Source of the DNA: Chloroflexota bacterium
GTDB lineage: Bacteria > Chloroflexota > Dehalococcoidia > DSTF01 > RBG-16-68-14
DNA: 64,000 nucleotides
Direction of reading: 5' to 3'
Assembly: GCA_003228685.1 (NCBI GenBank)
Contig: QIFC01000118.1
Span: 16,578 to 80,577, forward strand
In this document: positions 2,409-32,466 of the stretch, piece after piece
How the letters are laid out: every line of letters begins with the position of its first letter
How positions within the stretch are numbered: the stretch's first letter is position 1
Position numbers and translations under genes: made by a program
The notes under the pieces: generated by a model
Seen by the model: only the letters and a program-made list of their open reading frames with translations
What the model was told of the DNA's origin: nothing
Databases searched by the model: none

Positions 2409-3275
2409 TCACGCGGTAGCGCCGCTATCGGGTTCGACGAAGCGCAGGCGAAGCTTGTCCGCCTCCGGACGTGATTCCTCGATCAATAGCTGCTCGCCGG
2501 TCGCATCGCGAAGACCGTCGACGATCTGGCGAGCGGCCAAGGGCGCGTTCAGCACGACCTCCAGAGAGGCCTCGCCGTTCTTGTACGCGACAACCGAAGC
2601 GCCCTCAGTCTGGGGCAGCCCGCTCAGGGCCCGTTGGACGTCCATGAGGCCCTGGAAGCCCGGCACCGCGGCGAGGACAACGCCCATCGGCGACGCGCCA
2701 GGCCGGAACTGTGGCTCAACCGGGGTGGCCGGCGCTGGAGCAGGCGCAGCGTGCGCCGCAGCGGGCGCTGGCTGGACCGGCTGCGTACTCGCCTCGCGGA
2801 GCGCGCGAGTGATCTCGTTCATGCGGCCTTCGACGCGGCCCGCCGTTTCGGCGAGATCGGACGCGCCGTCAGAGAGCCGCTCTGCCTGCGTCGTGAGACG
2901 GTCCAGGGTACCCTCGAGGCGCTCGAACATCTCGTTGATCGTGCGCTTGAGATCGGCCACCTCCAGGGAGGCGTCGGCCCCGGACGCCACGTCCGCCTTG
3001 GCCGATTCCTGTACCTGGTTCTCAAGCGCCTCGAGCATTGACTCGAAGTGTTCCAGGGTCTGCTCAAGGTTCTCGGCCGCTTCGGCCGCGGAGTGGTCGG
3101 GCGCGGGCATCATCGATGTCGATGCCTGTCCTTCGTTCTTGGTCGTAGGCTTGGTAGTCACAACACTACCTCCGAATAACTGGCTGGCGACGCGCAGGAG
3201 TAGGCTACCGATCGAGCCACGCCGCCCGCGTGAACTCGAACGCGCCTCTACGTCCGAACCCGTCTTCTCCACCAT
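2409..3275 (-). CDS. Hypothetical protein, coiled-coil/acidic middle region
   Basis: 288-aa ORF with coding-like composition that fills the gap between recF and a divergent promoter. I recognise no family. Confidence 0.5.
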   Translation of the reverse strand: MVEKTGSDVEARSSSRGRRGSIGSLLLRVASQLFGGSVVTTKPTTKNEGQASTSMMPAPDHSAAEAAENLEQTLEHFESMLEALENQVQESAKADVASGADASLEVADLKRTINEMFERLEGTLDRLTTQAERLSDGASDLAETAGRVEGRMNEITRALREASTQPVQPAPAAAHAAPAPAPATPVEPQFRPGASPMGVVLAAVPGFQGLMDVQRALSGLPQTEGASVVAYKNGEASLEVVLNAPLAARQIVDGLRDATGEQLLIEESRPEADKLRLRFVEPDSGATA

Positions 3276-4072: not shown

Positions 4073-5053
4073 ATGCATCATCCACTCCACACGCCCATCT
4101 GCGACTACTTCGGCATTGAGTATCCGATCTTCCTGGCCGGCATGGGCGGCGTCTCCGCGTCCGCGCTGACGGCGGCAGTTTCGAATGCGGGCGGCCTCGG
4201 CATCCTGGGCGGCGCCACCATGGACGACGCGCTCCTCCGGGAAGAGATCAAGAAGACCAAGGAGCTGACGGACAAGCCGTTCGCCGTCGATCTGCTGGCG
4301 CCGATCCCTGACATGATCCGGTCCCAGATCGAGATCATCTTTGAAGAGGACATCCGCATCTTCGTCGCCGGGCTCGCCGTACCGGCCGAGTTCATCGAAG
4401 AGATGCACGCACGCGACATGAAGGTCGTCGTGATGTGCGGCAAGGTGCGCCACGCTGAGAAGTCGGAGGCAATGGGCGCGGACGTCGTCGCCGCGCAGGG
4501 CACGGAGGCGGGCGGCCACACCGGCGAGATTGGCGGGATGGCGCTGATCCCGCAGACGGTGGAGGCGGTCAACATCCCGGTGCTTGCGGCGGGCGGCTTG
4601 GTGAACGGCCGCGGGCTGATCGCCGCGCTCGCGCTGGGCGCGCAGGGCGCCATCTTCGGGACGCGTTTCATCGCGACTCCGGAGGCGCAGGCCGCGCCGG
4701 GCTACCAGGAAGCGCTCGTCGCCGCGAAGGACGACTCGACGGTACGTTCGCGCTCCTACACCGGCAAGCCGGCGCGCGCCCTCCGCACAGAGCGGACGGA
4801 TGAGTGGGAGGCGAAGGCCGACGAAATCCAAGCGTTCCCGATGCAGGCAGGCATCTCAGCCCGCGAAGGCGTGATGGACTACATGGGGCGCGGCGATCAC
4901 TTCGATCCGAACCGCATGTTCATGCCGTCCGGGCAAGGGGTAGGCCTGATCCACGAAATGAAGCCCGCCGCTGAGATCTTCGCCGACATCGTCAGTGAAG
5001 CAGAAGAGACGCTACTCAAGCTGACCAAGCTGGCCGCACCCGCGAAGGTGTAG
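4073..5053 (+). CDS. Nitronate monooxygenase / FabK-like FMN oxidoreductase
   Basis: ICDYFGIEYPIFLAGMGGVSASALTAAVSNAGGLGILGG and ...AQGTEAGGHTG... are NMO (2-nitropropane dioxygenase) family hallmarks. Confidence 0.85.
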   Translation: MHHPLHTPICDYFGIEYPIFLAGMGGVSASALTAAVSNAGGLGILGGATMDDALLREEIKKTKELTDKPFAVDLLAPIPDMIRSQIEIIFEEDIRIFVAGLAVPAEFIEEMHARDMKVVVMCGKVRHAEKSEAMGADVVAAQGTEAGGHTGEIGGMALIPQTVEAVNIPVLAAGGLVNGRGLIAALALGAQGAIFGTRFIATPEAQAAPGYQEALVAAKDDSTVRSRSYTGKPARALRTERTDEWEAKADEIQAFPMQAGISAREGVMDYMGRGDHFDPNRMFMPSGQGVGLIHEMKPAAEIFADIVSEAEETLLKLTKLAAPAKV

Positions 5054-5085
5054 CGAAGCGCAGTCTGACGAGAAGGACCGCGTCA

Positions 5086-5457
5086 GTGAAGTTTATGATC
5101 TCCTTCACGCATACCACCGGCGAGTGGGCGGACCGCGTGCCGCGCTGGGCAGAGCTTTCCGACGAAGAAAAGCAGGGCGTTGCCGGCCACCTCAAGGAAG
5201 CCATGGACGCGCTGGAGACCGAGCAGGGAACCACGATGGTCTTCTTCGATGCGCCCGAGAACGCGCGCACGGTGCGCATGCACAAGGACGGTTCGCTCGA
5301 TGTCGAGGAGAACGCGCTCATGAACGGTGCTGAGTTCGTGGGAGGCTACTTCATCATCGAGGTCGACTCCATGGACGAAGCGTTGGACTGGGCGAAGCGG
5401 ACCCGCTGGCTCGTGGGCTCAAACGAAGTCCGCGAGATCAAGGAGCTGCAGCTTTAG
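5086..5457 (+). CDS. YciI-like (YCII-related) domain protein
   Basis: 123 aa. The C-terminal ...GGYFIIEVDSMDEALDWAKR... is typical of the YCII family. GTG start. Confidence 0.65.
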   Translation: MKFMISFTHTTGEWADRVPRWAELSDEEKQGVAGHLKEAMDALETEQGTTMVFFDAPENARTVRMHKDGSLDVEENALMNGAEFVGGYFIIEVDSMDEALDWAKRTRWLVGSNEVREIKELQL

Positions 5458-10428: not shown

Positions 10429-11511
10429 ATGGAATTCGGACTGCTGTACGAAATCGAGAAGACCCAACCGTGGGACGAGAACAGCCAGCGCAATGTGTTC
10501 ATGGAGTCGCTGGAGCAGATCAAGCTGGCTGAAGAAGTCGGCTTCGATTACGTCTGGGAGGTCGAGCACCACTTTCTGGGCGAGTTCTCGATCTCGTCGG
10601 CGCCCGAGGTCTTCCTGTCAGCCGTCAGCCAGCACACCAAGACGATCCGCATCGGGCATGGCGTCGTCCTGCTGCCGTTCGGCTACAACCACCCGATCCG
10701 CGTCGCGGAGCGGGCGGCGACGCTCGATATTGTGAGCAACGGGCGGCTGGAGTTCGGCACGGGCCGCTCGGCGACAAACTTCGAGATGGAGCCGTTCGGC
10801 GTCGACCCGGAGTCGAACCGCGACGAGTGGGACGAGGCCGTGCGCATGATCCCGAAGATGTGGACGGAGGACGAGTTCTCGTGGGACAGCGAGAAGATGA
10901 AGATCCCGCCCCGCAACGTCTTCCCCAAGCCGCTGCAGAAGCCGCACCCGCCGATGTGGATGGCGGGCACGCAGCCGTCATCGGCGTTCCTCGCGGCCGA
11001 GCGCGGGCTGGGCTTTCTGCACTTCAGCTACACGGACCCCGAAGCGCTAGACGAGAAGATCACGAAGTACCGCGAGGGCATCGAGAAGAGCGAGCCCGTC
11101 GGCAGCTTCATCAACAACAAGTTCGCCGCCTTCACGCTGATGCACTGCGGACGCGACGACAAGGAGGCGCTGGCCACCGGCGGCCCCGGCGCGGAGTGGT
11201 ACGTGCGCGCGACGAACATGCTCTACTCGTTCTGGGCGCAGTCAGACACGCCGTCCTACAAGTGGTACGCGGAGCAGTTCGAGAAGGGCAAGGCAGGCGC
11301 GGACGTCAATGTGGAGCAGATGGTGGACGACTCGGTCCTCTGCATCGGCGGGCCGGAGCGCTGCGCTCAGATCGCGGGCCACTTCCGCGACCAGGGCGTC
11401 GACCAACTGATCTTCCTGGTGCAGCACGGCCCGACCAAGCACGAGGCGATCCTGGATTCGCTGCGCCGCTTCGGCGAAGAGGTGATCCCACAGTTCAAGA
11501 ACGGCGCGTAG
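10429..11511 (+). CDS. LLM-class (luciferase-like) flavin/F420-dependent oxidoreductase
   Basis: 360 aa. MEFGLLYEI..., ...AEEVGFDYVWEVEHHF..., ...IVSNGRLEFGTGRS... are luciferase-like monooxygenase family features. Confidence 0.85.
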   Translation: MEFGLLYEIEKTQPWDENSQRNVFMESLEQIKLAEEVGFDYVWEVEHHFLGEFSISSAPEVFLSAVSQHTKTIRIGHGVVLLPFGYNHPIRVAERAATLDIVSNGRLEFGTGRSATNFEMEPFGVDPESNRDEWDEAVRMIPKMWTEDEFSWDSEKMKIPPRNVFPKPLQKPHPPMWMAGTQPSSAFLAAERGLGFLHFSYTDPEALDEKITKYREGIEKSEPVGSFINNKFAAFTLMHCGRDDKEALATGGPGAEWYVRATNMLYSFWAQSDTPSYKWYAEQFEKGKAGADVNVEQMVDDSVLCIGGPERCAQIAGHFRDQGVDQLIFLVQHGPTKHEAILDSLRRFGEEVIPQFKNGA

Positions 11512-28951: not shown

Positions 28952-29007
28952 AGCTAGCACAGCTTCGCACAGATGGCGGCACGGCGCGAGGTGGAAGCTA
29001 GAGAAAT

Positions 29008-29724
29008 CTAGCCGACGAGCGAAACCAGATCGGTGAGCGACGTGATTGTGTGCTGTGGTGGCTCGATGTCGTCCGGCCAGGCCGCGTCGTGGCGATTGAT
29101 CCAGGCCTGGCCCATGCCGGCATTCCGTGAACCCTCGACGTCGGCCCACGGTGTGTCGCCGACATAGAGCGCCTCTGACGGCTGAATGCCCATGCGTTCG
29201 CAGGTCTCGCGAAAGATCGAGACGTGTGGCTTGTAGACGTTCAGTTCTTCGGAAGAAACCACGGTCTCGAACGTCAGGCCGTTCTTAGCGATACTGCCCT
29301 GCAAGAAGGCATCGTCTGCGTTTGAGAGGACGGCTAGCCGGCAGGAGCGGCCCAACTTCCGCAGCGTGTCGCGAACTTCGGGGTAGAGTTCCGCTTCGAT
29401 GTGGAGGGCGGTGTAGGCGTCTGCCCCTAGCTCACCTCCGGCTTCAACACCCCAGAATTGAAACAGTTCGCCGAATCGCTCACGCCAAGAGTCCCAGAAA
29501 GTGCGGAACTCGAACGGCTCGCCATCGGTTGCGGGTCTGGCGTTATGGCTGACGCCAAACCGTAGGTTCCAGTCACCCGACGTGTGCTCGATCCACTGCT
29601 GGTACGCCTCGCCGGGCGCTAGCTGATGACCAACATCGCGCGCGATACCGTCGAACATTCGCTGGCGCGGCGGCTCATGCAGCTGTGCCAACGTTTCGTA
29701 GTAGTCGAAGATGATGGCTCTCAT
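29008..29724 (-). CDS. HAD-superfamily hydrolase
   Basis: [12 protein letters not shown] (DxYxT variant of motif I)...VLSNAD...[12 protein letters not shown] (motif IV). Confidence 0.8.
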
Positions 29725-29730
29725 GGCGGC

Positions 29731-29770
29731 CACAGACGAACACAGATTGGCACAGATTGACGCAGATGAA
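29731..29770 (+). repeat. Four tandem decamers CACAGAYNNN (left island boundary)
   Basis: CACAGACGAA CACAGATTGG CACAGATTGA CGCAGATGAA. Confidence 0.85.
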
Positions 29771-29801
29771 TACTCCTTGAGGGAAGTGAAATTCTAGATA
29801 G

Positions 29802-30074
29802 CTACTCGACGAGCTTACTCGCCTCCCTGTAGATCGAACTCCTCGGGCCTACGAGTCGGACGACGAGTTCGTCCGGGTTGCCATCGTAAGTGTAGATTAT
29901 GCGATACCCGCCAATGCGCCTCTTGTAGAAGTCACCGAGATTCCCTTCAAGTGGATGATGAACAATTTCCGTGCGGTGCTTCCATATCCAGTCCGCCTTG
30001 TCCAAAATTCTCTTGACATCTTTGGAAGGAATGCCGCTTAGCGCGTCCTCGTGGATAAGCGGCTGTGTGCTCAT
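29802..30074 (-). CDS. RelE/ParE-family type II toxin
   Basis: ...HHPLEGNLGDFYKRRIGGYRIIYTYDGNPDELVVRLVGPRSSIY... is the canonical RelE/ParE C-terminal pattern. Its ATG overlaps the upstream gene's TGA (TGATG). Confidence 0.8.
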   Translation of the reverse strand: MSTQPLIHEDALSGIPSKDVKRILDKADWIWKHRTEIVHHPLEGNLGDFYKRRIGGYRIIYTYDGNPDELVVRLVGPRSSIYREASKLVE

Positions 30075-30799
30075 CAAGCAGTTGAATTCTTCCTGGCCTC
30101 ATCAAGAGACAAGAGCTTGCCTGTCTTCATTGACGCCTGAAGCCTCTCAGCAGTTTCTGGCCGAAGCTCCAAGTTCTCATCAGGGTCAGGCATCTTCTCT
30201 TCAAGTTCCTCGATGACGAGATGAAGCCTGTGCACCTCCTGCCGCAACGTAGGTATTTCTGCAAGACTGGTCGTTCTTGCTGACAGAATAAAGTCGTACT
30301 GATCCTTTGGAAAGTCATCCATCGCCTGGTAGCTGCCTTCGTATCCGACGGGTGCCGGCTCATCAAGCGACTGAAACTCAACAGTGAAGAACGGAGTGCC
30401 GAGGCTTAGGGTAATGGGTTCTGGCCCAACATTTAGCAGACTCAATGTGAGTCTGCCTTCGTAACCGGGATCAATTTGGGGGCCTCCGAAGGAGTTCATC
30501 CCCTTTCGAGCGAACTCTGAGCGAATCCCAATTTTGCCACAGATGCTCAATGGAAGTTGTACGCGTTCCTGAGAAATCGCAGCGACCATCTGGCCAGACT
30601 GCACCTTGTAGCTTGGGCTGTTGTCATTCAACTCAATCACAGCCCCGAGGATGTCTTGGCTTAGCGGACTTGCGAGAATTTTGGGGCCAAGAAGAAGATC
30701 GTAGCTGGCGGGCTGAACGAGGTCTTGGTCAAACGGCGACAGCACTAACTCGCCTGATTCGACCAAGCGGCGAATCTGCGAACCTGAGAGCATCCCCAT
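30074..30799 (-). CDS. dCTP deaminase/dUTPase-fold protein with about 80-aa coiled-coil/antitoxin-like C-terminal extension
   Basis: ATG at 30799 lies 6 nt after AAGGAGG. MGMLSGSQIRRLVESGELVLSPFDQDLVQPASYDLLLG...GIRSEFARKG...QIDPGYEGRLTLSLLNVGPEPITL...GSYQ align by eye with Dcd. The C-terminus reads ...LRQEVHRLHLVIEELEEKMPDPDENLELRPETAERLQASMKTGKLLSLDEARK. Confidence 0.75.
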   Translation of the reverse strand: MGMLSGSQIRRLVESGELVLSPFDQDLVQPASYDLLLGPKILASPLSQDILGAVIELNDNSPSYKVQSGQMVAAISQERVQLPLSICGKIGIRSEFARKGMNSFGGPQIDPGYEGRLTLSLLNVGPEPITLSLGTPFFTVEFQSLDEPAPVGYEGSYQAMDDFPKDQYDFILSARTTSLAEIPTLRQEVHRLHLVIEELEEKMPDPDENLELRPETAERLQASMKTGKLLSLDEARKNSTA

Positions 30800-30811
30800 C
30801 TCTAGCCTCCT

Positions 30812-30846
30812 TTGACAAAACAGCCCTAGGGCTGTACCCTGGTCAA
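30812..30846. promoter_or_regulatory. Nested palindrome upstream of the Dcd-like/RelE pair (candidate operator)
   Basis: TTGAC-AAA-ACAGCCCTAGGGCTGT-ACCCTG-GTCAA. The inner 16-bp perfect palindrome is at 30820-30835. It sits directly upstream of the RBS. Confidence 0.4.
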
Positions 30847-30945
30847 TGGAAACGACATAAATCCCCATTGGGTGCGGGGTAAAGCCCCAAGGCAGTGCCT
30901 ACCGGCCAGGGTAGGCATTTCGCTTTGTCTATCGGTAGTCTAACA

Positions 30946-31164
30946 CTAAGCAACCCGCCTGGTACAAGCTCTCAACGATTCGTAGTCTCCAACACGCATT
31001 TGCGCGAAGGCCTCCGCCTGCATCACCAGAACGCCAGTTAAGCAGAGCAACGAGATTTTCGCAAGCCCGCGACGGCAGCGCTGGCCGAGCTGATTGTGAA
31101 CTTCAAACGCTGAACCAACGATCTCACGAGTCAGCTCTTGATGTGGATACTTCTCCACCGCCAT
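30946..31164 (-). pseudogene. Degenerate GxxExxY-family (PD-(D/E)XK-like) gene remnant
   Basis: The N-terminus MAVEKYPHQELTREIVGSAFEVHNQLG matches the GxxExxY family start. After that, similarity jumps between frames (..CENLVALL.. in +2, ..VGDYESL.. in the original) and the ORF is only about 72 aa, against the ~125 aa I recall for the family. Confidence 0.5.
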
Positions 31165-31194
31165 ATTATCTGTGTCCATCTGTGAGAATCTGTG
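31165..31194 (-). repeat. Three tandem decamers CACAGATNNN (right island boundary, inverted relative to 29731..29770)
   Basis: The minus strand reads CACAGATTCT CACAGATGGA CACAGATAAT. Confidence 0.85.
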
Positions 31195-31206
31195 GCGAAG
31201 TTCAGC

Positions 31207-31440
31207 CTACGCTTCGAGGCCGAGGAATTCCTTCATCGCGCCGCGCAATTGCGCCCGATGCTCCGGCATGCCCAGGTTGAGGCCGTGGTGGTTGATGAGG
31301 TTGCCGGACATGGCGCGCCACTCGCCCCAGCAATCGGTGCAGATCGTCTCTACGATCTTCTCGCCGAGGGGGCCGCCCATCGGCGCTTCATCGATCTGCT
31401 CTTTGTCGTTGGCGCAGCGGTCACACTTGATAGTGGCCAT
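31207..31440 (-). CDS. yggX: Fe(II)-trafficking / oxidative-damage protection protein (YggX family)
   Basis: 77 aa. MATIKCDRCANDKEQIDEAPMGGPLGEKIVETICTDCWGEWRAMSGNLINHHGLNLGMPEHRAQL... parallels YggX (..W..W......LINE..LN......R..L). Confidence 0.7.
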   Translation of the reverse strand: MATIKCDRCANDKEQIDEAPMGGPLGEKIVETICTDCWGEWRAMSGNLINHHGLNLGMPEHRAQLRGAMKEFLGLEA

Positions 31441-31452
31441 GTAATCTCCTTC

Positions 31453-32466
31453 TTACGCGGAATGTTCCGCGGGATCGTCCGAAAGCCAGCGAGCGGCTTC
31501 CTTCGCGTGATAGGTGATGATGATGTCCGCGCCGGCGCGCTTGATCGACATGAGTATCTCCAGCACGACCCGGGATCCGTCCAGCCAGCCGTTACGCGCG
31601 GCCGCGTGGACCATGGAGTACTCGCCGCTGACGTTGTACGCGGCGAGCGGCAAGTCGAAGCTCTGACGCGCCCGCGAGAGCACGTCCAGGTACGCGAGCG
31701 CCGGCTTCACCATGACGATGTCCGCGCCCTCAGCGATGTCCGTCTCGATCTCCCGCAGCGCCTCGCGGACATTTGGCGGGTCCATCTGATAGCTGCGGCG
31801 GTCGCCGAACTGCGGCGCAGAATCGGCGGCCTCGCGGAACGGCCCATAGAACGCCGACGCGTACTTCGCGGAGTAGGCCATGATCGGCGTGCTGTCGAAG
31901 TTCCCGTCGTCTAGCGCGGAGCGGATGGCCGCGACGCGGCCGTCCATCATGTCCGACGGCGCGATGACGTCCGCGCCGGCTCGCGCGTGCGAGACCGCGG
32001 TGCGCGAGAGCAGGTCGAGCGAGCTGTCGTTGTCGATTTCGCCGTCGACGACCACGCCGCAGTGGCCGTAGGACGTGTACTCACAGAGGCAAACGTCCGT
32101 CATCACGACCAGGCCGCGGTCGGCGGCCTTCAGCGTGCGGACGGCCTCCTGGACGATGCCGCCGTCCGCGTAGGCCTCGCTGCCCTGTTCGTCCTTGGCG
32201 GCGGGGAGGCCGAACAGCAGGACGGCCGGCACGCCGAGTTCGCGTAGCTCCTCCGCCTCGCCGGCCAGCCGGTCGAGCGAGAGGTGGTACTGGCCGGGCA
32301 TCGATGGGATCTCTTCGCGCACGTTCTGCCCGTGCGTGACGAACAGCGGATAGACGAAGTCGTCCGGCCGCAGCGCCGTCTCGCGCACGAGCCGGCGCAA
32401 CCCTTCGCTGCCACGCAGGCGGCGGAAGCGCTCGATCGGAGGGTTCGTTGTGATGTCGACTGTCAT
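31453..32466 (-). CDS. hemB: Porphobilinogen synthase (delta-aminolevulinate dehydratase)
   Basis: 337 aa. ...[29 protein letters not shown]..., ...[14 protein letters not shown]... (Zn-Cys motif) and ...VKPA.... Confidence 0.93.

What the first reader, a model, noticed from the sequence alone, without database searches (positions are those of the whole stretch)
29731..31194. Lower-GC 1.4-kb island bounded by inverted arrays of CACAGAT decamers interrupts the haem biosynthesis cluster
Seen in sequence: four tandem decamers CACAGACGAA/CACAGATTGG/CACAGATTGA/CGCAGATGAA lie at 29731-29770 on the plus strand. Three decamers CACAGATTCT/CACAGATGGA/CACAGATAAT lie at 31194-31165 on the minus strand. 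They are in inverted orientation and bracket a segment that is visibly more AT-rich than its surroundings. The segment contains the RelE/Dcd-like pair and a decayed GxxExxY-family remnant (good N-terminus, then frame-hopping similarity, truncated). The island sits between yggX/hemB and the HAD-hemL genes, so it splits an otherwise continuous run of hem genes. Inference: this is a small mobile or recombination-prone cassette. The decamer arrays could be its termini or protein-binding iterons, and the TA-like pair may have inserted into and destroyed a GxxExxY element.
Basis: seen in the sequence. Interest (0 to 1): 0.6.

Follow-up and report, generated by a model that had tools for sequence, protein, structure and literature searches.

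The report
Nuclease gene's inverted decamer-repeat ends
The two inverted arrays of CACAGAT decamers are the typical ends of a small nuclease-gene element (GxxExxY family) found in many prokaryotic phyla; here the nuclease gene was cut short by an incoming toxin-antitoxin-like gene pair, and no paper I could search describes this link between repeats and gene.

Summary
Four CACAGAT-type decamers lie at 29731-29770 (+) and three at 31165-31194 (-). They are far above chance and bracket a lower-GC segment.

The arrays are not special to this island. They are the standard flanks of GxxExxY (Pfam PDDEXK_3) nuclease genes. Of 70 such genes chosen by protein alone, 44 have inverted 9- or 10-bp-period arrays (core C-R-C-N-G-A-T) at both ends; 241 control windows have none. 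The exact CACAGAT version occurs in at least 15 phyla, mostly as gene-less palindromes.

Related Chloroflexota carry the same element in the same yggX-HAD spacer, in different states:
- an intact nuclease gene;
- a frameshifted nuclease gene;
- a dGTPase defence gene between the arrays;
- in a co-occurring strain, no island and one array.

In the window a separately mobile Dcd-like/RelE-like two-gene module (about 29819-30974) replaced the 3' two-thirds or more of the nuclease gene.

Most likely mechanism, inferred and not shown: the arrays are phased binding sites for the nuclease on a selfish, foldback-like or REPIN-like element, and the space between them accepts toxin-antitoxin (TA) and defence cargo.

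I found no description of this repeat-gene association in the searchable literature.

The parts
31165..31194 (-). Proximal (5') arm of the GxxExxY element: 3 decamers CACAGATTCT/CACAGATGGA/CACAGATAAT. Contains the ATG of the remnant ORF (reads MDTDNMAVEKY...).
   Evidence: Orthologous arrays lie in L121 (4281-4307) and L124 (555-581, 609-635) next to yggX.
31085..31179 (-). GxxExxY (PDDEXK_3) nuclease pseudogene. Only about the first 32-36 codons are recognisable. The GxxExxY motif and the D...ExK catalytic part are missing.
   Evidence: tblastn against intact members gives E 4e-8, ending at EVHNQLG. blastn against L121/L124 ends near 31085. No Pfam hit for the 77-aa ORF. The intact orthologue in L124 matches PF13366 at 4e-42.
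30975..31084 (-). Stretch of unclear origin between the nuclease remnant and the module: either decayed GxxExxY sequence or junction DNA.
   Evidence: Only weak, non-significant DNA likeness in alignment A1. No blastn or tblastn match.
30800..30974 (-). 5' leader of the Dcd/RelE module. Holds a 7-bp hairpin and a long-range inverted repeat, including the 16-bp palindrome ACAGCCCTAGGGCTGT at 30820-30835. An AGGAGG Shine-Dalgarno sequence precedes the ATG at 30799.
   Evidence: Homologous to the region upstream of the Dcd-like gene in L205/L206/L208. Compensatory changes are seen in a 4-sequence alignment. Present only in the closest subclade.
30074..30799 (-). Dcd-like protein, 241 aa: dCTP-deaminase/dUTPase fold plus a conserved C-terminal extension of about 60 aa. 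It may act as the antitoxin or sensor partner of the downstream toxin-like gene.
   Evidence: Pfam DCD 2.3e-20. TIGR02274 scores 85.3, below its cut-off of 92.8. More than 400 homologues of the same length. No PADLOC hit.
29802..30077 (-). RelE/ParE-like small protein, 91 aa. Overlaps the Dcd-like stop codon by 4 bp.
   Evidence: ParE_toxin E 2.9e-4, 21.8 bits against a cut-off of 23. TIGR02385 scores 22.1 against 27.9. A conserved partner of 83-95 aa follows Dcd-like genes in most of the other contexts examined, L205-L212.
29731..29770 (+). Distal (3') arm of the element: 4 decamers, which read ATCTGCG-TCA-ATCTGTG-CCA-ATCTGTG-TTC-GTCTGTG on the gene strand. The last unit supplies a possible GTG start codon for HAD.
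   Evidence: Orthologous to L121 4694-4720 (ATCTGTGCCAATCTGTGTTCATCTGTGGCC) and L122 5978-5994.
28958..28974 (+). Solo 2-unit array (CACAGCTTCGCACAGAT) in the HAD-hemL spacer, 6 bp upstream of the hemL ATG.
   Evidence: Solo arrays sit at the same place in L122 (7555-7571) and L123 (6755-6781).
29008..29733 (-). HAD-family hydrolase: flanking host gene, not part of the element.
   Evidence: Pfam Hydrolase 2.4e-21. Syntenic in L121-L124.
31207..31440 (-). yggX-like Fe(2+)-trafficking protein: flanking host gene, not part of the element.
   Evidence: Pfam Iron_traffic 4e-15. Syntenic in L121-L124.

Best explanation
The two arrays are the inverted terminal arrays of a small GxxExxY (PDDEXK_3, PD-(D/E)XK nuclease) element. 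This element has long resided in the yggX-HAD spacer of this Chloroflexota lineage.

Shown:
- Such elements consist of an arm of 2-5 phased 9-10-bp units (conserved heptamer C-R-C-N-G-A-T, here CACAGAT, plus 2-3 free bases), a nuclease ORF of about 125 aa whose start codon lies in the arm, and the same arm inverted.
- Gene-less versions, two arms with a 3-150-bp spacer, are common in many phyla.
- In the window a separately mobile two-gene module (Dcd-like plus RelE/ParE-like, with its own leader, about 29819-30974, lower GC) replaced the 3' two-thirds or more of the nuclease gene. The result is arm - dead nuclease stub - module - arm.

Inferred mechanism:
- The heptamers are sequence-specific binding sites, one per helical turn, for GxxExxY nuclease oligomers. 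These may be the element's own protein or a paralogue acting in trans.
- Binding and cleavage at paired arms drives copying or maintenance of the element (homing-like or REPIN/foldback-like).
- Binding over the start codon would also auto-repress the nuclease.
- The space between the arms is a recombination-prone slot that accepts TA and defence cargo.
For: The arrays are real and non-random.

The exact 27-mer pattern has a chance expectation of 0.27 hits in the genome collection. It is found in at least 120 stretches from at least 15 phyla and in 46 viral contig stretches.

89 inverted pairs show the geometry seen in the window. Pairs 361-466 bp apart each hold one intact GxxExxY gene that starts inside the array.

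Unbiased converse test:
- 44 of 70 GxxExxY genes picked by protein have inverted period-9/10 arrays at both ends, and 8 more have a distant partner. Controls give 0 of 241.
- Database GxxExxY N-termini commonly read MDTD/MNTD, which is translated array.

Signs of sequence-specific recognition:
- The heptamer is conserved while the spacer triplets vary, including between the orthologous arrays of the window, L121 and L124.
- The arms of one element share the heptamer variant: 0.59 against 0.20 when shuffled.
- Protein identity is slightly higher within a heptamer class: 1 of 2000 permutations reaches the observed difference.
- The catalytic residues D79, E89 and K91 are invariant or nearly so, and the model is a confident PD-(D/E)XK fold.

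Site history:
- L124 has an intact element, L121 a frameshifted one, and L122 a dGTPase between remnant arms.
- A strain in the same sample lacks the 1445-bp island.

The module is independent. It is 75% identical over 1169 nt to L205. The contexts looked at by hand are unrelated, and none of the 80 metagenome loci carrying it has arrays.

Other cargo found between arms: DUF3368-PIN/UPF0175, a HicB-like protein and a Zeta-toxin-like protein, and an extra ORF in L151/L161.
Against: - No binding, cleavage or mobility has been shown. The link between protein and array is co-occurrence plus weak co-variation, which shared descent could also produce.
- No target-site duplication is seen: the flanks are inverted complements, not direct repeats.
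- The spacers of gene-less elements contain no nuclease-gene remnants, so they are not simple deletion derivatives.
- About 18 of 70 GxxExxY genes show no detectable arrays.
- Arrays persist here although the local nuclease gene is dead, and solo arrays sit conserved upstream of hemL in three genomes. A host function cannot be excluded.
- The empty allele rests on one low-depth contig at about 89% identity, with 36 letters on one side of the joint.
Confidence: 0.6

Rival explanations
1. The arrays act as RNA. The two arms pair in the transcript to form a long stem that sequesters the nuclease start codon, or that gives an RNase III processing site or terminator which insulates the operon. This would resemble rRNA intervening sequences that carry an ORF in the loop.
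For: - The arms are inverted, and the variable positions plus about 5 bp of outer flank are complementary more often than chance: 0.59-0.63 against 0.43-0.48.
- The start codon lies in the arm.
- In L014 two palindromic elements bracket a tmRNA gene.
Against: - The sequence of the heptamer is conserved across phyla far more strongly than the complementarity between arms. A pure stem would need only complementarity.
- There is no A/G asymmetry between the 5' and 3' arms, so no G-U wobble signature on the sense strand.
- No Rfam family matches.
- In the window the arms are 1.4 kb apart and their triplets are not complementary.
- A phase of 9-10 bp fits binding to one face of B-DNA.
Confidence: 0.15
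2. The arrays are host regulatory sites (operators or iterons) for a transcription factor that controls HAD, hemL and neighbouring genes. The GxxExxY genes merely insert near them.
For: - Solo arrays lie directly upstream of the HAD and hemL start codons and are kept in relatives.
- The HAD start may be the GTG inside the last unit.
Against: - The same arrays flank GxxExxY genes next to unrelated genes in at least 15 phyla and in viral contigs. No single host regulator is shared by all of these.
- The heptamer variant goes with the element, not with the neighbouring gene.
- No sigma-70-type promoter signal lies in the arrays on the gene strand.
Confidence: 0.08
3. The whole 1.46-kb island, arrays included, is one composite mobile cassette that inserted as a unit. 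The arrays would be the termini of the RelE/Dcd cassette.
For: - The segment between the arrays is lower in GC than the flanks.
- A strain in the same sample lacks the whole island.
Against: - Relatives carry the orthologous arrays at the same site without the module (L121, L124).
- The module occurs in more than 80 other loci without arrays.
- Homology to other copies of the module stops at 29819 and 30974, inside the arrays.
Confidence: 0.07
4. The paired arms are attC-like recombination sites used by a tyrosine recombinase, and the genes between them are integron-type cassettes.
For: - The elements are imperfect palindromes of 60-200 bp with conserved ends (AAC|C...G|GTT) and variable centres.
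- The cargo is rich in TA modules, as in integron cassettes.
Against: - Cargo lies inside a palindrome, not between successive sites.
- attC sites do not consist of phased tandem decamers.
- The loci show single elements scattered in operon spacers, not cassette arrays.
- No integrase was sought or seen next to them.
Confidence: 0.04

Closest known systems
REPINs and RAYT genes (REP doublets forming hairpins; REP-associated tyrosine transposase flanked by REPs), PMC3116915
   Same: - A short repeat occurs as inverted doublets with a variable spacer, in extragenic space and in many copies.
- The presumed mobilising gene is itself flanked by the repeats in inverted orientation.
- Singlets occur as decay products.
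   Different: - The associated protein is a PD-(D/E)XK nuclease of about 125 aa that occurs in many copies, not a single-copy HUH/Y1 transposase.
- Each arm is a phased tandem array of 9-10-bp units, not one 20-40-bp palindrome.
- There is no GTAG/CGTC tag.
- The core heptamer is shared across phyla.
- The arms can enclose cargo genes.
Eukaryotic Foldback elements (Drosophila FB; from established knowledge, not tested here)
   Same: - The terminal inverted repeats are built from tandem short subrepeats.
- Most copies have little or no loop; some carry coding sequence in the loop.
- They are prone to rearrangement.
   Different: - The elements here are prokaryotic and far smaller.
- The associated protein is a minimal PD-(D/E)XK nuclease, not a P- or MULE-type transposase.
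- No target-site duplication was seen.
Free-standing homing endonuclease genes, including PD-(D/E)XK types such as I-Ssp6803I (from established knowledge)
   Same: - A small nuclease gene sits in the middle of a palindromic site and splits it.
- Unoccupied, gene-less sites exist.
- Alleles with and without the gene exist at the same locus.
   Different: - The putative site is a repeated, dispersed array rather than a unique conserved host gene.
- No intron or intein is involved.
- Cleavage is untested.
Bacterial MITEs (for example Correia elements)
   Same: Short non-coding elements with terminal inverted repeats lie in intergenic spacers. Families within one genome share an internal sequence, for example L003/L097 and L007/L067/L080.
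   Different: - No target-site duplication.
- No parent insertion sequence (IS) with a DDE transposase.
- The spacers hold no remnant of the associated gene.
Type II RelE/ParE toxin-antitoxin modules (for the cargo)
   Same: Two small overlapping genes, with the downstream one showing RelE/ParE-like sequence features. The pair is found in variable genomic contexts.
   Different: - The upstream partner is a 241-aa dCTP-deaminase-fold protein, not a known antitoxin.
- The toxin scores are below the family cut-offs.
- No PADLOC or TA model matches the pair.

Membership tests
GxxExxY / PDDEXK_3 (PF13366, TIGR04256) gene | Significant match to the family profile | tested here: not met
   The 77-aa remnant ORF has no Pfam or NCBIfam hit. 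Only residues 1-36 align with intact members (E 4e-8). The orthologue in L124 scores 4e-42. The window copy is therefore a pseudogene of the family.
GxxExxY / PDDEXK_3 (PF13366, TIGR04256) gene | GxxExxY motif and catalytic D...ExK residues | tested here: not met
   Similarity ends just before the motif: the window reads ...NQLGQRCRRG where intact members read ...LGGGFLEKVYE. D79, E89 and K91 are invariant or nearly so in intact members.
GxxExxY element as defined here (nuclease ORF between inverted 9-10-bp-period arrays) | Inverted arrays with core C-R-C-N-G-A-T, and the ORF start inside the proximal arm | tested here: met
   Arrays at 31165-31194 and 29731-29770, with the remnant's ATG inside the array. 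The same architecture is seen in 44 of 70 family members.
RelE/ParE type II toxin | Score above the curated cut-off of PF05016 or TIGR02385 | tested here: inconclusive
   21.8 bits against 23, and 22.1 bits against 27.9. Both are below the cut-off, but the match covers the conserved C-terminal core.
RelE/ParE type II toxin | Adjacent cognate antitoxin with a DNA-binding fold | not tested
   The upstream gene is Dcd-like with a conserved C-terminal extension. Its antitoxin role is only inferred from gene order, the 4-bp overlap and the conserved pairing.
dCTP deaminase (Dcd, TIGR02274) | Equivalog score above the cut-off | tested here: not met
   85.3 bits against a cut-off of 92.8. The Pfam DCD fold domain is met, 73.7 against 27. 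It has the fold but is not the housekeeping enzyme.
Nucleotide-depletion defence (PADLOC dCTP deaminase / dGTPase) | Match to a PADLOC model | tested here: not met
   No PADLOC hit for the window's two proteins. The gene in the same slot in L122 matches PADLOC dGTPase at 1.6e-100.
MITE / IS-type transposon | Direct target-site duplication flanking the inverted repeats | tested here: not met
   The flanks next to the arms are inverted complements (AAC|...|GTT), not direct repeats.
REPIN/RAYT system | HUH/Y1 RAYT transposase, and REPs carrying a GTAG or CGTC tag | tested here: not met
   The associated protein has a PD-(D/E)XK fold. The arm consensus is wwTknAAC-CACAGAT..., without the tag.
Integron cassette / attC | Linked IntI integrase and tandem gene-attC arrays | not tested
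   No search for an integrase was run. The layout (cargo inside one palindrome, single scattered elements) does not fit.
Known structured RNA (Rfam 15) | Covariance-model match | tested here: not met
   No family matches the arrays in the window (E up to 1) or in 12 loci carrying elements.

The most novel reading that the evidence does not exclude
GxxExxY nucleases together with their inverted decamer arrays form an unrecognised, pan-prokaryotic class of selfish DNA. It would be a foldback/REPIN-like system in which a minimal PD-(D/E)XK nuclease recognises a phased heptamer code (C-R-C-N-G-A-T variants). The nuclease would spread or maintain thousands of gene-less palindromes, and its inter-arm slot would serve as a landing pad for toxin-antitoxin and anti-phage genes such as the Dcd/RelE pair here and the dGTPase in a relative.
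Probability: 0.35. Interest if true: 0.8.

Novelty: new variant of a known kind. Interest (0 to 1): 0.62.

Why it matters
GxxExxY/PDDEXK_3 is a very large family. One search returned more than 3500 protein clusters. It has no assigned function and no solved structure.

Tying the family to a conserved, phased DNA repeat gives it a concrete substrate that can be tested. It also explains three things:
- a class of widespread intergenic palindromes;
- why GxxExxY genes so often sit on very short contigs, possibly because assemblies break at the repeats (inferred);
- why their annotated N-termini read MNTD/MDTD.

If the nuclease reads a heptamer code with lineage-specific variants, it could be a new family of sequence-specific DNA-binding nucleases and a new type of bacterial mobile element. 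The inter-arm slot would be one more place to look for TA and defence genes.

For this window alone the result is modest: a decayed element with a captured two-gene module inside an otherwise ordinary haem-gene neighbourhood.

Tried and rejected
- **Rfam.** Scans of the window region and of 12 loci carrying elements gave no family for the arrays.
- **Literature.** Searches for the repeat strings, GxxExxY, PDDEXK_3/PF13366/TIGR04256, IVS or four-helix-bundle proteins, MITE/PDDEXK, prokaryotic foldback and small dispersed repeats turned up nothing describing the arrays.
- **PDB sequence search.** No structure is solved for the family.
- **Foldseek.** It returns only generic PD-(D/E)XK neighbours (lambda exonuclease, Cas4, MGME1, tRNA-splicing endonuclease, Hjc) at TM about 0.5, so no specific functional lead.
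- **Arrays as ends of the Dcd/RelE module.** Rejected: none of 8 contexts read by hand or 80 metagenome loci has arrays.
- **Gene-less elements as deletion derivatives of the gene.** No coding remnants were found.
- **G-U wobble asymmetry** as a signature of an RNA stem: none.
- **Sigma-70 promoter and terminator scan** of the region: nothing above the shuffled background.
- **RNA evidence.** Only a DNA metagenome run holds the window, and an RNA run found for a Methanoperedens copy holds only 7% of the sampled words, so transcription could not be examined.
- **PADLOC** on the window's two proteins: no hit.
- **Two of the 'far partner' cases** (L152, L196) look like chance matches across host metabolic genes.
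Full report
**1. Observation**

Reading 29400-31500 confirms four tandem decamers, CACAGACGAA/CACAGATTGG/CACAGATTGA/CGCAGATGAA, at 29731-29770 on the + strand. Three more, CACAGATTCT/CACAGATGGA/CACAGATAAT, lie at 31194-31165 on the - strand.

The phased pattern CACAGATNNNCACAGAT (up to 2 mismatches) occurs 6 times against 0.20 expected, and none of 100 shuffles reaches that. The lone heptamer is not enriched. Tandem Repeats Finder reports the left array with period 10. A generic scan for period-9/10 arrays finds no other array of this kind in the 64 kb. One extra item is a 2-unit array at 28958-28974, 6 bp upstream of the hemL start codon.

GC is 0.50-0.55 between the arrays and 0.61-0.72 outside.

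All genes are on the - strand, in this order:
- hemB
- yggX (31207-31440)
- [array]
- GxxExxY stub
- Dcd-like (30074-30799; I place the start at the ATG preceded by AGGAGG)
- RelE/ParE-like (29802-30077)
- [array]
- HAD hydrolase (29008-29733)
- [mini-array]
- hemL

**2. What the arrays are**

About 0.27 hits would be expected by chance for 21 specified bases in 1.2e12 positions.

The hits come from Bacteroidota, Cyanobacteriota, Planctomycetota, Acidobacteriota, Chloroflexota, Verrucomicrobiota, Spirochaetota, Desulfobacterota and other Deltaproteobacteria, Gammaproteobacteria, NC10, Nitrospinota, Gemmatimonadota, Patescibacteria, a Nanoarchaeota MAG and others. A further 46 stretches are in viral contigs.

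In these loci I found 89 pairs with the window's geometry, that is CACAGAT arrays followed by ATCTGTG arrays. Most have only 3-150 bp between them. The consensus arm is wwTkn-AAC|CACAGAT-GAA-CACAGAT-rAA-CACAGAT.

The five pairs 361-466 bp apart each enclose one intact GxxExxY gene. Its start codon is inside the array: CACAG ATG AAC ACA GAT reads MNTD. The window's stub starts the same way (MDTDNMAVEKY...). Two wider pairs enclose TA-type genes. One holds DUF3368-PIN, UPF0175, an HSDR_N nuclease-like protein and a HicB-like protein. The other holds a Zeta-toxin-like protein.

**3. Unbiased converse test**

I fetched 80 GxxExxY loci by protein similarity alone.
- With the strict CACAGAT motif, 33 of 72 have a correctly oriented array within 150 bp. 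The background is 0.054 arrays per kb.
- The apparent negatives mostly carry the same architecture with other heptamers: CGCGGAT, CGCAGAT, CACGGAT, CGCTGAT, CACGAAT, CAGGAT (9-bp period), CACAGAC, CGCAAAT.
- With a heptamer-agnostic detector, 44 of 70 genes have inverted arrays at both ends within 160 bp (28 with period 10, 16 with period 9), and 8 more have a distant partner. Shifted control windows in the same loci give 0 of 241. Periods 8, 11 and 12 give 0-1.
- The arms of one element share the heptamer variant: 0.59 against 0.20 +/- 0.05 when arms are shuffled between elements.
- Protein cores are slightly more alike within a heptamer class: 0.565 against 0.540, reached by 1 of 2000 permutations.
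- Among 120 database GxxExxY proteins, 35 have an array-derived xTD motif within the first 30 residues. MDTD (16), MNTD (10) and MSTD (4) are among the commonest opening tetrapeptides.

Inverted phased arrays are therefore a family-wide hallmark of GxxExxY genes.

**4. The protein**

The L124 orthologue matches PF13366 at 4e-42. More than 3500 clusters were returned, mostly on very short contigs. In a 50-sequence alignment D79 and E89 are invariant and K91 nearly so, which is the PD-(D/E)XK catalytic triad.

The AlphaFold model is confident (pLDDT 91.3). Its nearest solved folds are generic PD-(D/E)XK nucleases: lambda exonuclease, Cas4 SSO0001, MGME1, tRNA-splicing endonuclease and Hjc, at TM about 0.5. 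No structure is solved for the family itself.

**5. History of this site**

Four related Chloroflexota/Dehalococcoidia MAGs share the PAC2-hemB-yggX-...-HAD-hemL synteny. The yggX-HAD spacer differs between them:
- L124: a duplicated left array, an intact GxxExxY gene and a right array.
- L121: array, GxxExxY with frameshifts, array. Its right arm, ATCTGTGCCAATCTGTGTTCATCTGTGGCC, is clearly orthologous to the window's.
- L122: a decayed 2-unit left array, a 100-aa ORF, a 442-aa dGTPase (PADLOC 1.6e-100) and a right array.
- L123: only a vestige of the left array and other genes.

Solo arrays also sit in the HAD-hemL spacer of the window, L122 and L123.

The window comes from a hydrothermal-vent metagenome. 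In the same run a contig from a strain about 89% identical (depth 4.8 against 14.4) joins 29759 directly to 31205. That allele lacks the 1445-bp island and keeps one array. Another strain's contig has its own array, ATCTGTGACTATCTGTGTGAATGTGTGGCC, abutting 31199 with unlike DNA inside.

The slot between yggX and HAD is therefore long occupied by this element and is polymorphic in content.

**6. The cargo**

The Dcd-like protein has more than 400 homologues of constant length. In eight contexts it is followed, in nearly all, by a small gene of 83-95 aa. The neighbourhoods are unrelated: next to CTP synthase, an IS, TrmO, or a TA-rich island. No decamer arrays are present there, nor in any of 80 metagenome loci.

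blastn shows that window 29819-30974 is 75% identical over 1169 nt to the L205 module, including about 175 nt of leader. Similarity of the stub to L121/L124 ends near 31085, and protein similarity ends at residue 36.

The RelE/ParE assignment is weak (below cut-offs). The Dcd-like protein is not the housekeeping enzyme (below the TIGR02274 cut-off). Neither protein matches PADLOC.

**7. Mechanism**

Shown: architecture, distribution, association, polymorphism.

Inferred: the heptamers are protein-binding sites. Five observations point that way.
- The heptamer is conserved across phyla and between orthologous arrays, while the 3-nt spacers drift.
- The period is 9-10 bp, about one site per helical turn.
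- The arms are symmetric.
- The heptamer variant is concordant between the arms of one element and weakly linked to protein clade.
- The catalytic site is conserved.

Gene-less doublets, nested elements (L057, L080) and families within one genome that share a spacer (L003/L097; L007/L067/L080) indicate dispersal.

The best analogies are REPINs with their RAYT genes (PMC3116915), foldback elements, and homing endonuclease genes that split a palindromic site.

An RNA-stem role is the main rival. Arm complementarity at variable positions is above chance (0.59-0.63 against 0.43-0.48). However, it is much weaker than heptamer conservation, no G-U asymmetry is seen and no Rfam model matches.

Open problems for a transposon model are the absence of target-site duplications and the absence of gene remnants in gene-less elements.

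**8. Novelty**

Nine literature searches and two targeted reads found no description of these arrays or of their link to GxxExxY genes. The 2012 survey of the superfamily lists PDDEXK_3 as of unknown function. The searchable library is incomplete, so prior description elsewhere cannot be excluded.

I rate the window's feature as a decayed member of an undescribed variant of a known kind: selfish or REP-like palindromic DNA with an associated nuclease.

**9. Verdict**

- Confidence is about 0.9 in the descriptive account and about 0.4 in the binding and mobility mechanism.
- Interest is 0.62. The local case is a dead element, but it exposes a general, testable rule for a very large family of unknown function.

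Noticed in passing
window 28958-28974; L122 7555-7571; L123 6755-6781: A solo 2-3-unit array of the same decamers lies in the HAD-hemL spacer just upstream of the hemL start. It is kept in three genomes whose HAD proteins are only 53-68% identical. It may be a remnant of a second element or may have been taken over for expression of hemL.
   Followed up: partly
window 29731-29733 (GTG); L121 about 4718; L122 about 5992: The longest HAD ORF starts at the GTG inside the last array unit (..TCTGTGGCC..). The CTGTGGCC junction is conserved in L121 and L122, where no ATG is available. The host gene may therefore draw its start codon from the repeat.
   Followed up: partly
window 30800-30974 (- strand); L205 about 2590-2754; L206 and L208 about 2840-3000: The Dcd-like gene has a conserved leader with a 7-bp hairpin and a long-range inverted repeat that shows compensatory changes. 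It includes the palindrome ACAGCCCTAGGGCTGT at 30820-30835. It is present only in the closest subclade, about 13 of 64 leaders. Other clades have a plain TTGCGA...TATAAT promoter instead. It could be an RNA element or an operator.
   Followed up: partly
window 29802-30799; L205-L212, L259-L338: Dcd-fold protein (241-245 aa, with an invariant C-terminal extension) plus a RelE/ParE-like protein of 83-95 aa is a widespread, conserved two-gene module in unrelated contexts. It matches no PADLOC or TA model. It may be an uncharacterised TA or defence pair with a nucleotide-binding partner.
   Followed up: partly
L122 4202-5868: In a relative, the same inter-array slot holds a 100-aa ORF and a dGTPase that matches the PADLOC anti-phage dGTPase model (1.6e-100). 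Two related genomes thus carry different nucleotide-metabolism or defence-type genes in the same slot.
   Followed up: partly
L014 4576-5164 (Patescibacteria MAG): A tmRNA gene (4667-5070) is bracketed tightly by two gene-less palindromic decamer elements (4576-4654 and 5076-5164).
   Followed up: no
L124 555-660: A 54-bp tandem duplication includes the whole left array and the first codons of the GxxExxY ORF.
   Followed up: no
L057 7661-7823; L080 4216-4397; L088 1781-1883: Elements are nested: a second palindromic array pair, sometimes of another heptamer class (CGCGGAT/CACGGAT), sits in the spacer of a CACAGAT element. This suggests that the centre of an element is itself an insertion site.
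   Followed up: no
L151 582-1950; L161 4001-5100: Architecture: array - GxxExxY - second array - ORF of 316 or 227 aa of unknown function that starts inside that array (MNTNKHK...) - closing array. A second gene is using an array as its start region.
   Followed up: no
L217 128-154 and 3343-3369; L253 about 11311-11337; L222: In IMG/VR viral contigs, solo arrays directly precede unrelated ORFs whose first codons are array-encoded (MNTDK..., MNTDSG..., MDTDKRK...).
   Followed up: no
run X1 laid on window 29853-30057 and 31199-31296: The same vent metagenome holds a second, 83%-identical copy of the RelE-like gene on a short contig. It also holds at least two further strain variants of the yggX-proximal array region.
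   Followed up: no
proteins P0121-P0240: Most GxxExxY proteins in the big protein collection come from contigs of only 0.5-2 kb. This would fit assemblies breaking at these repeats, which is an inference; if so, the family and its arrays are probably under-represented in binned genomes.
   Followed up: no
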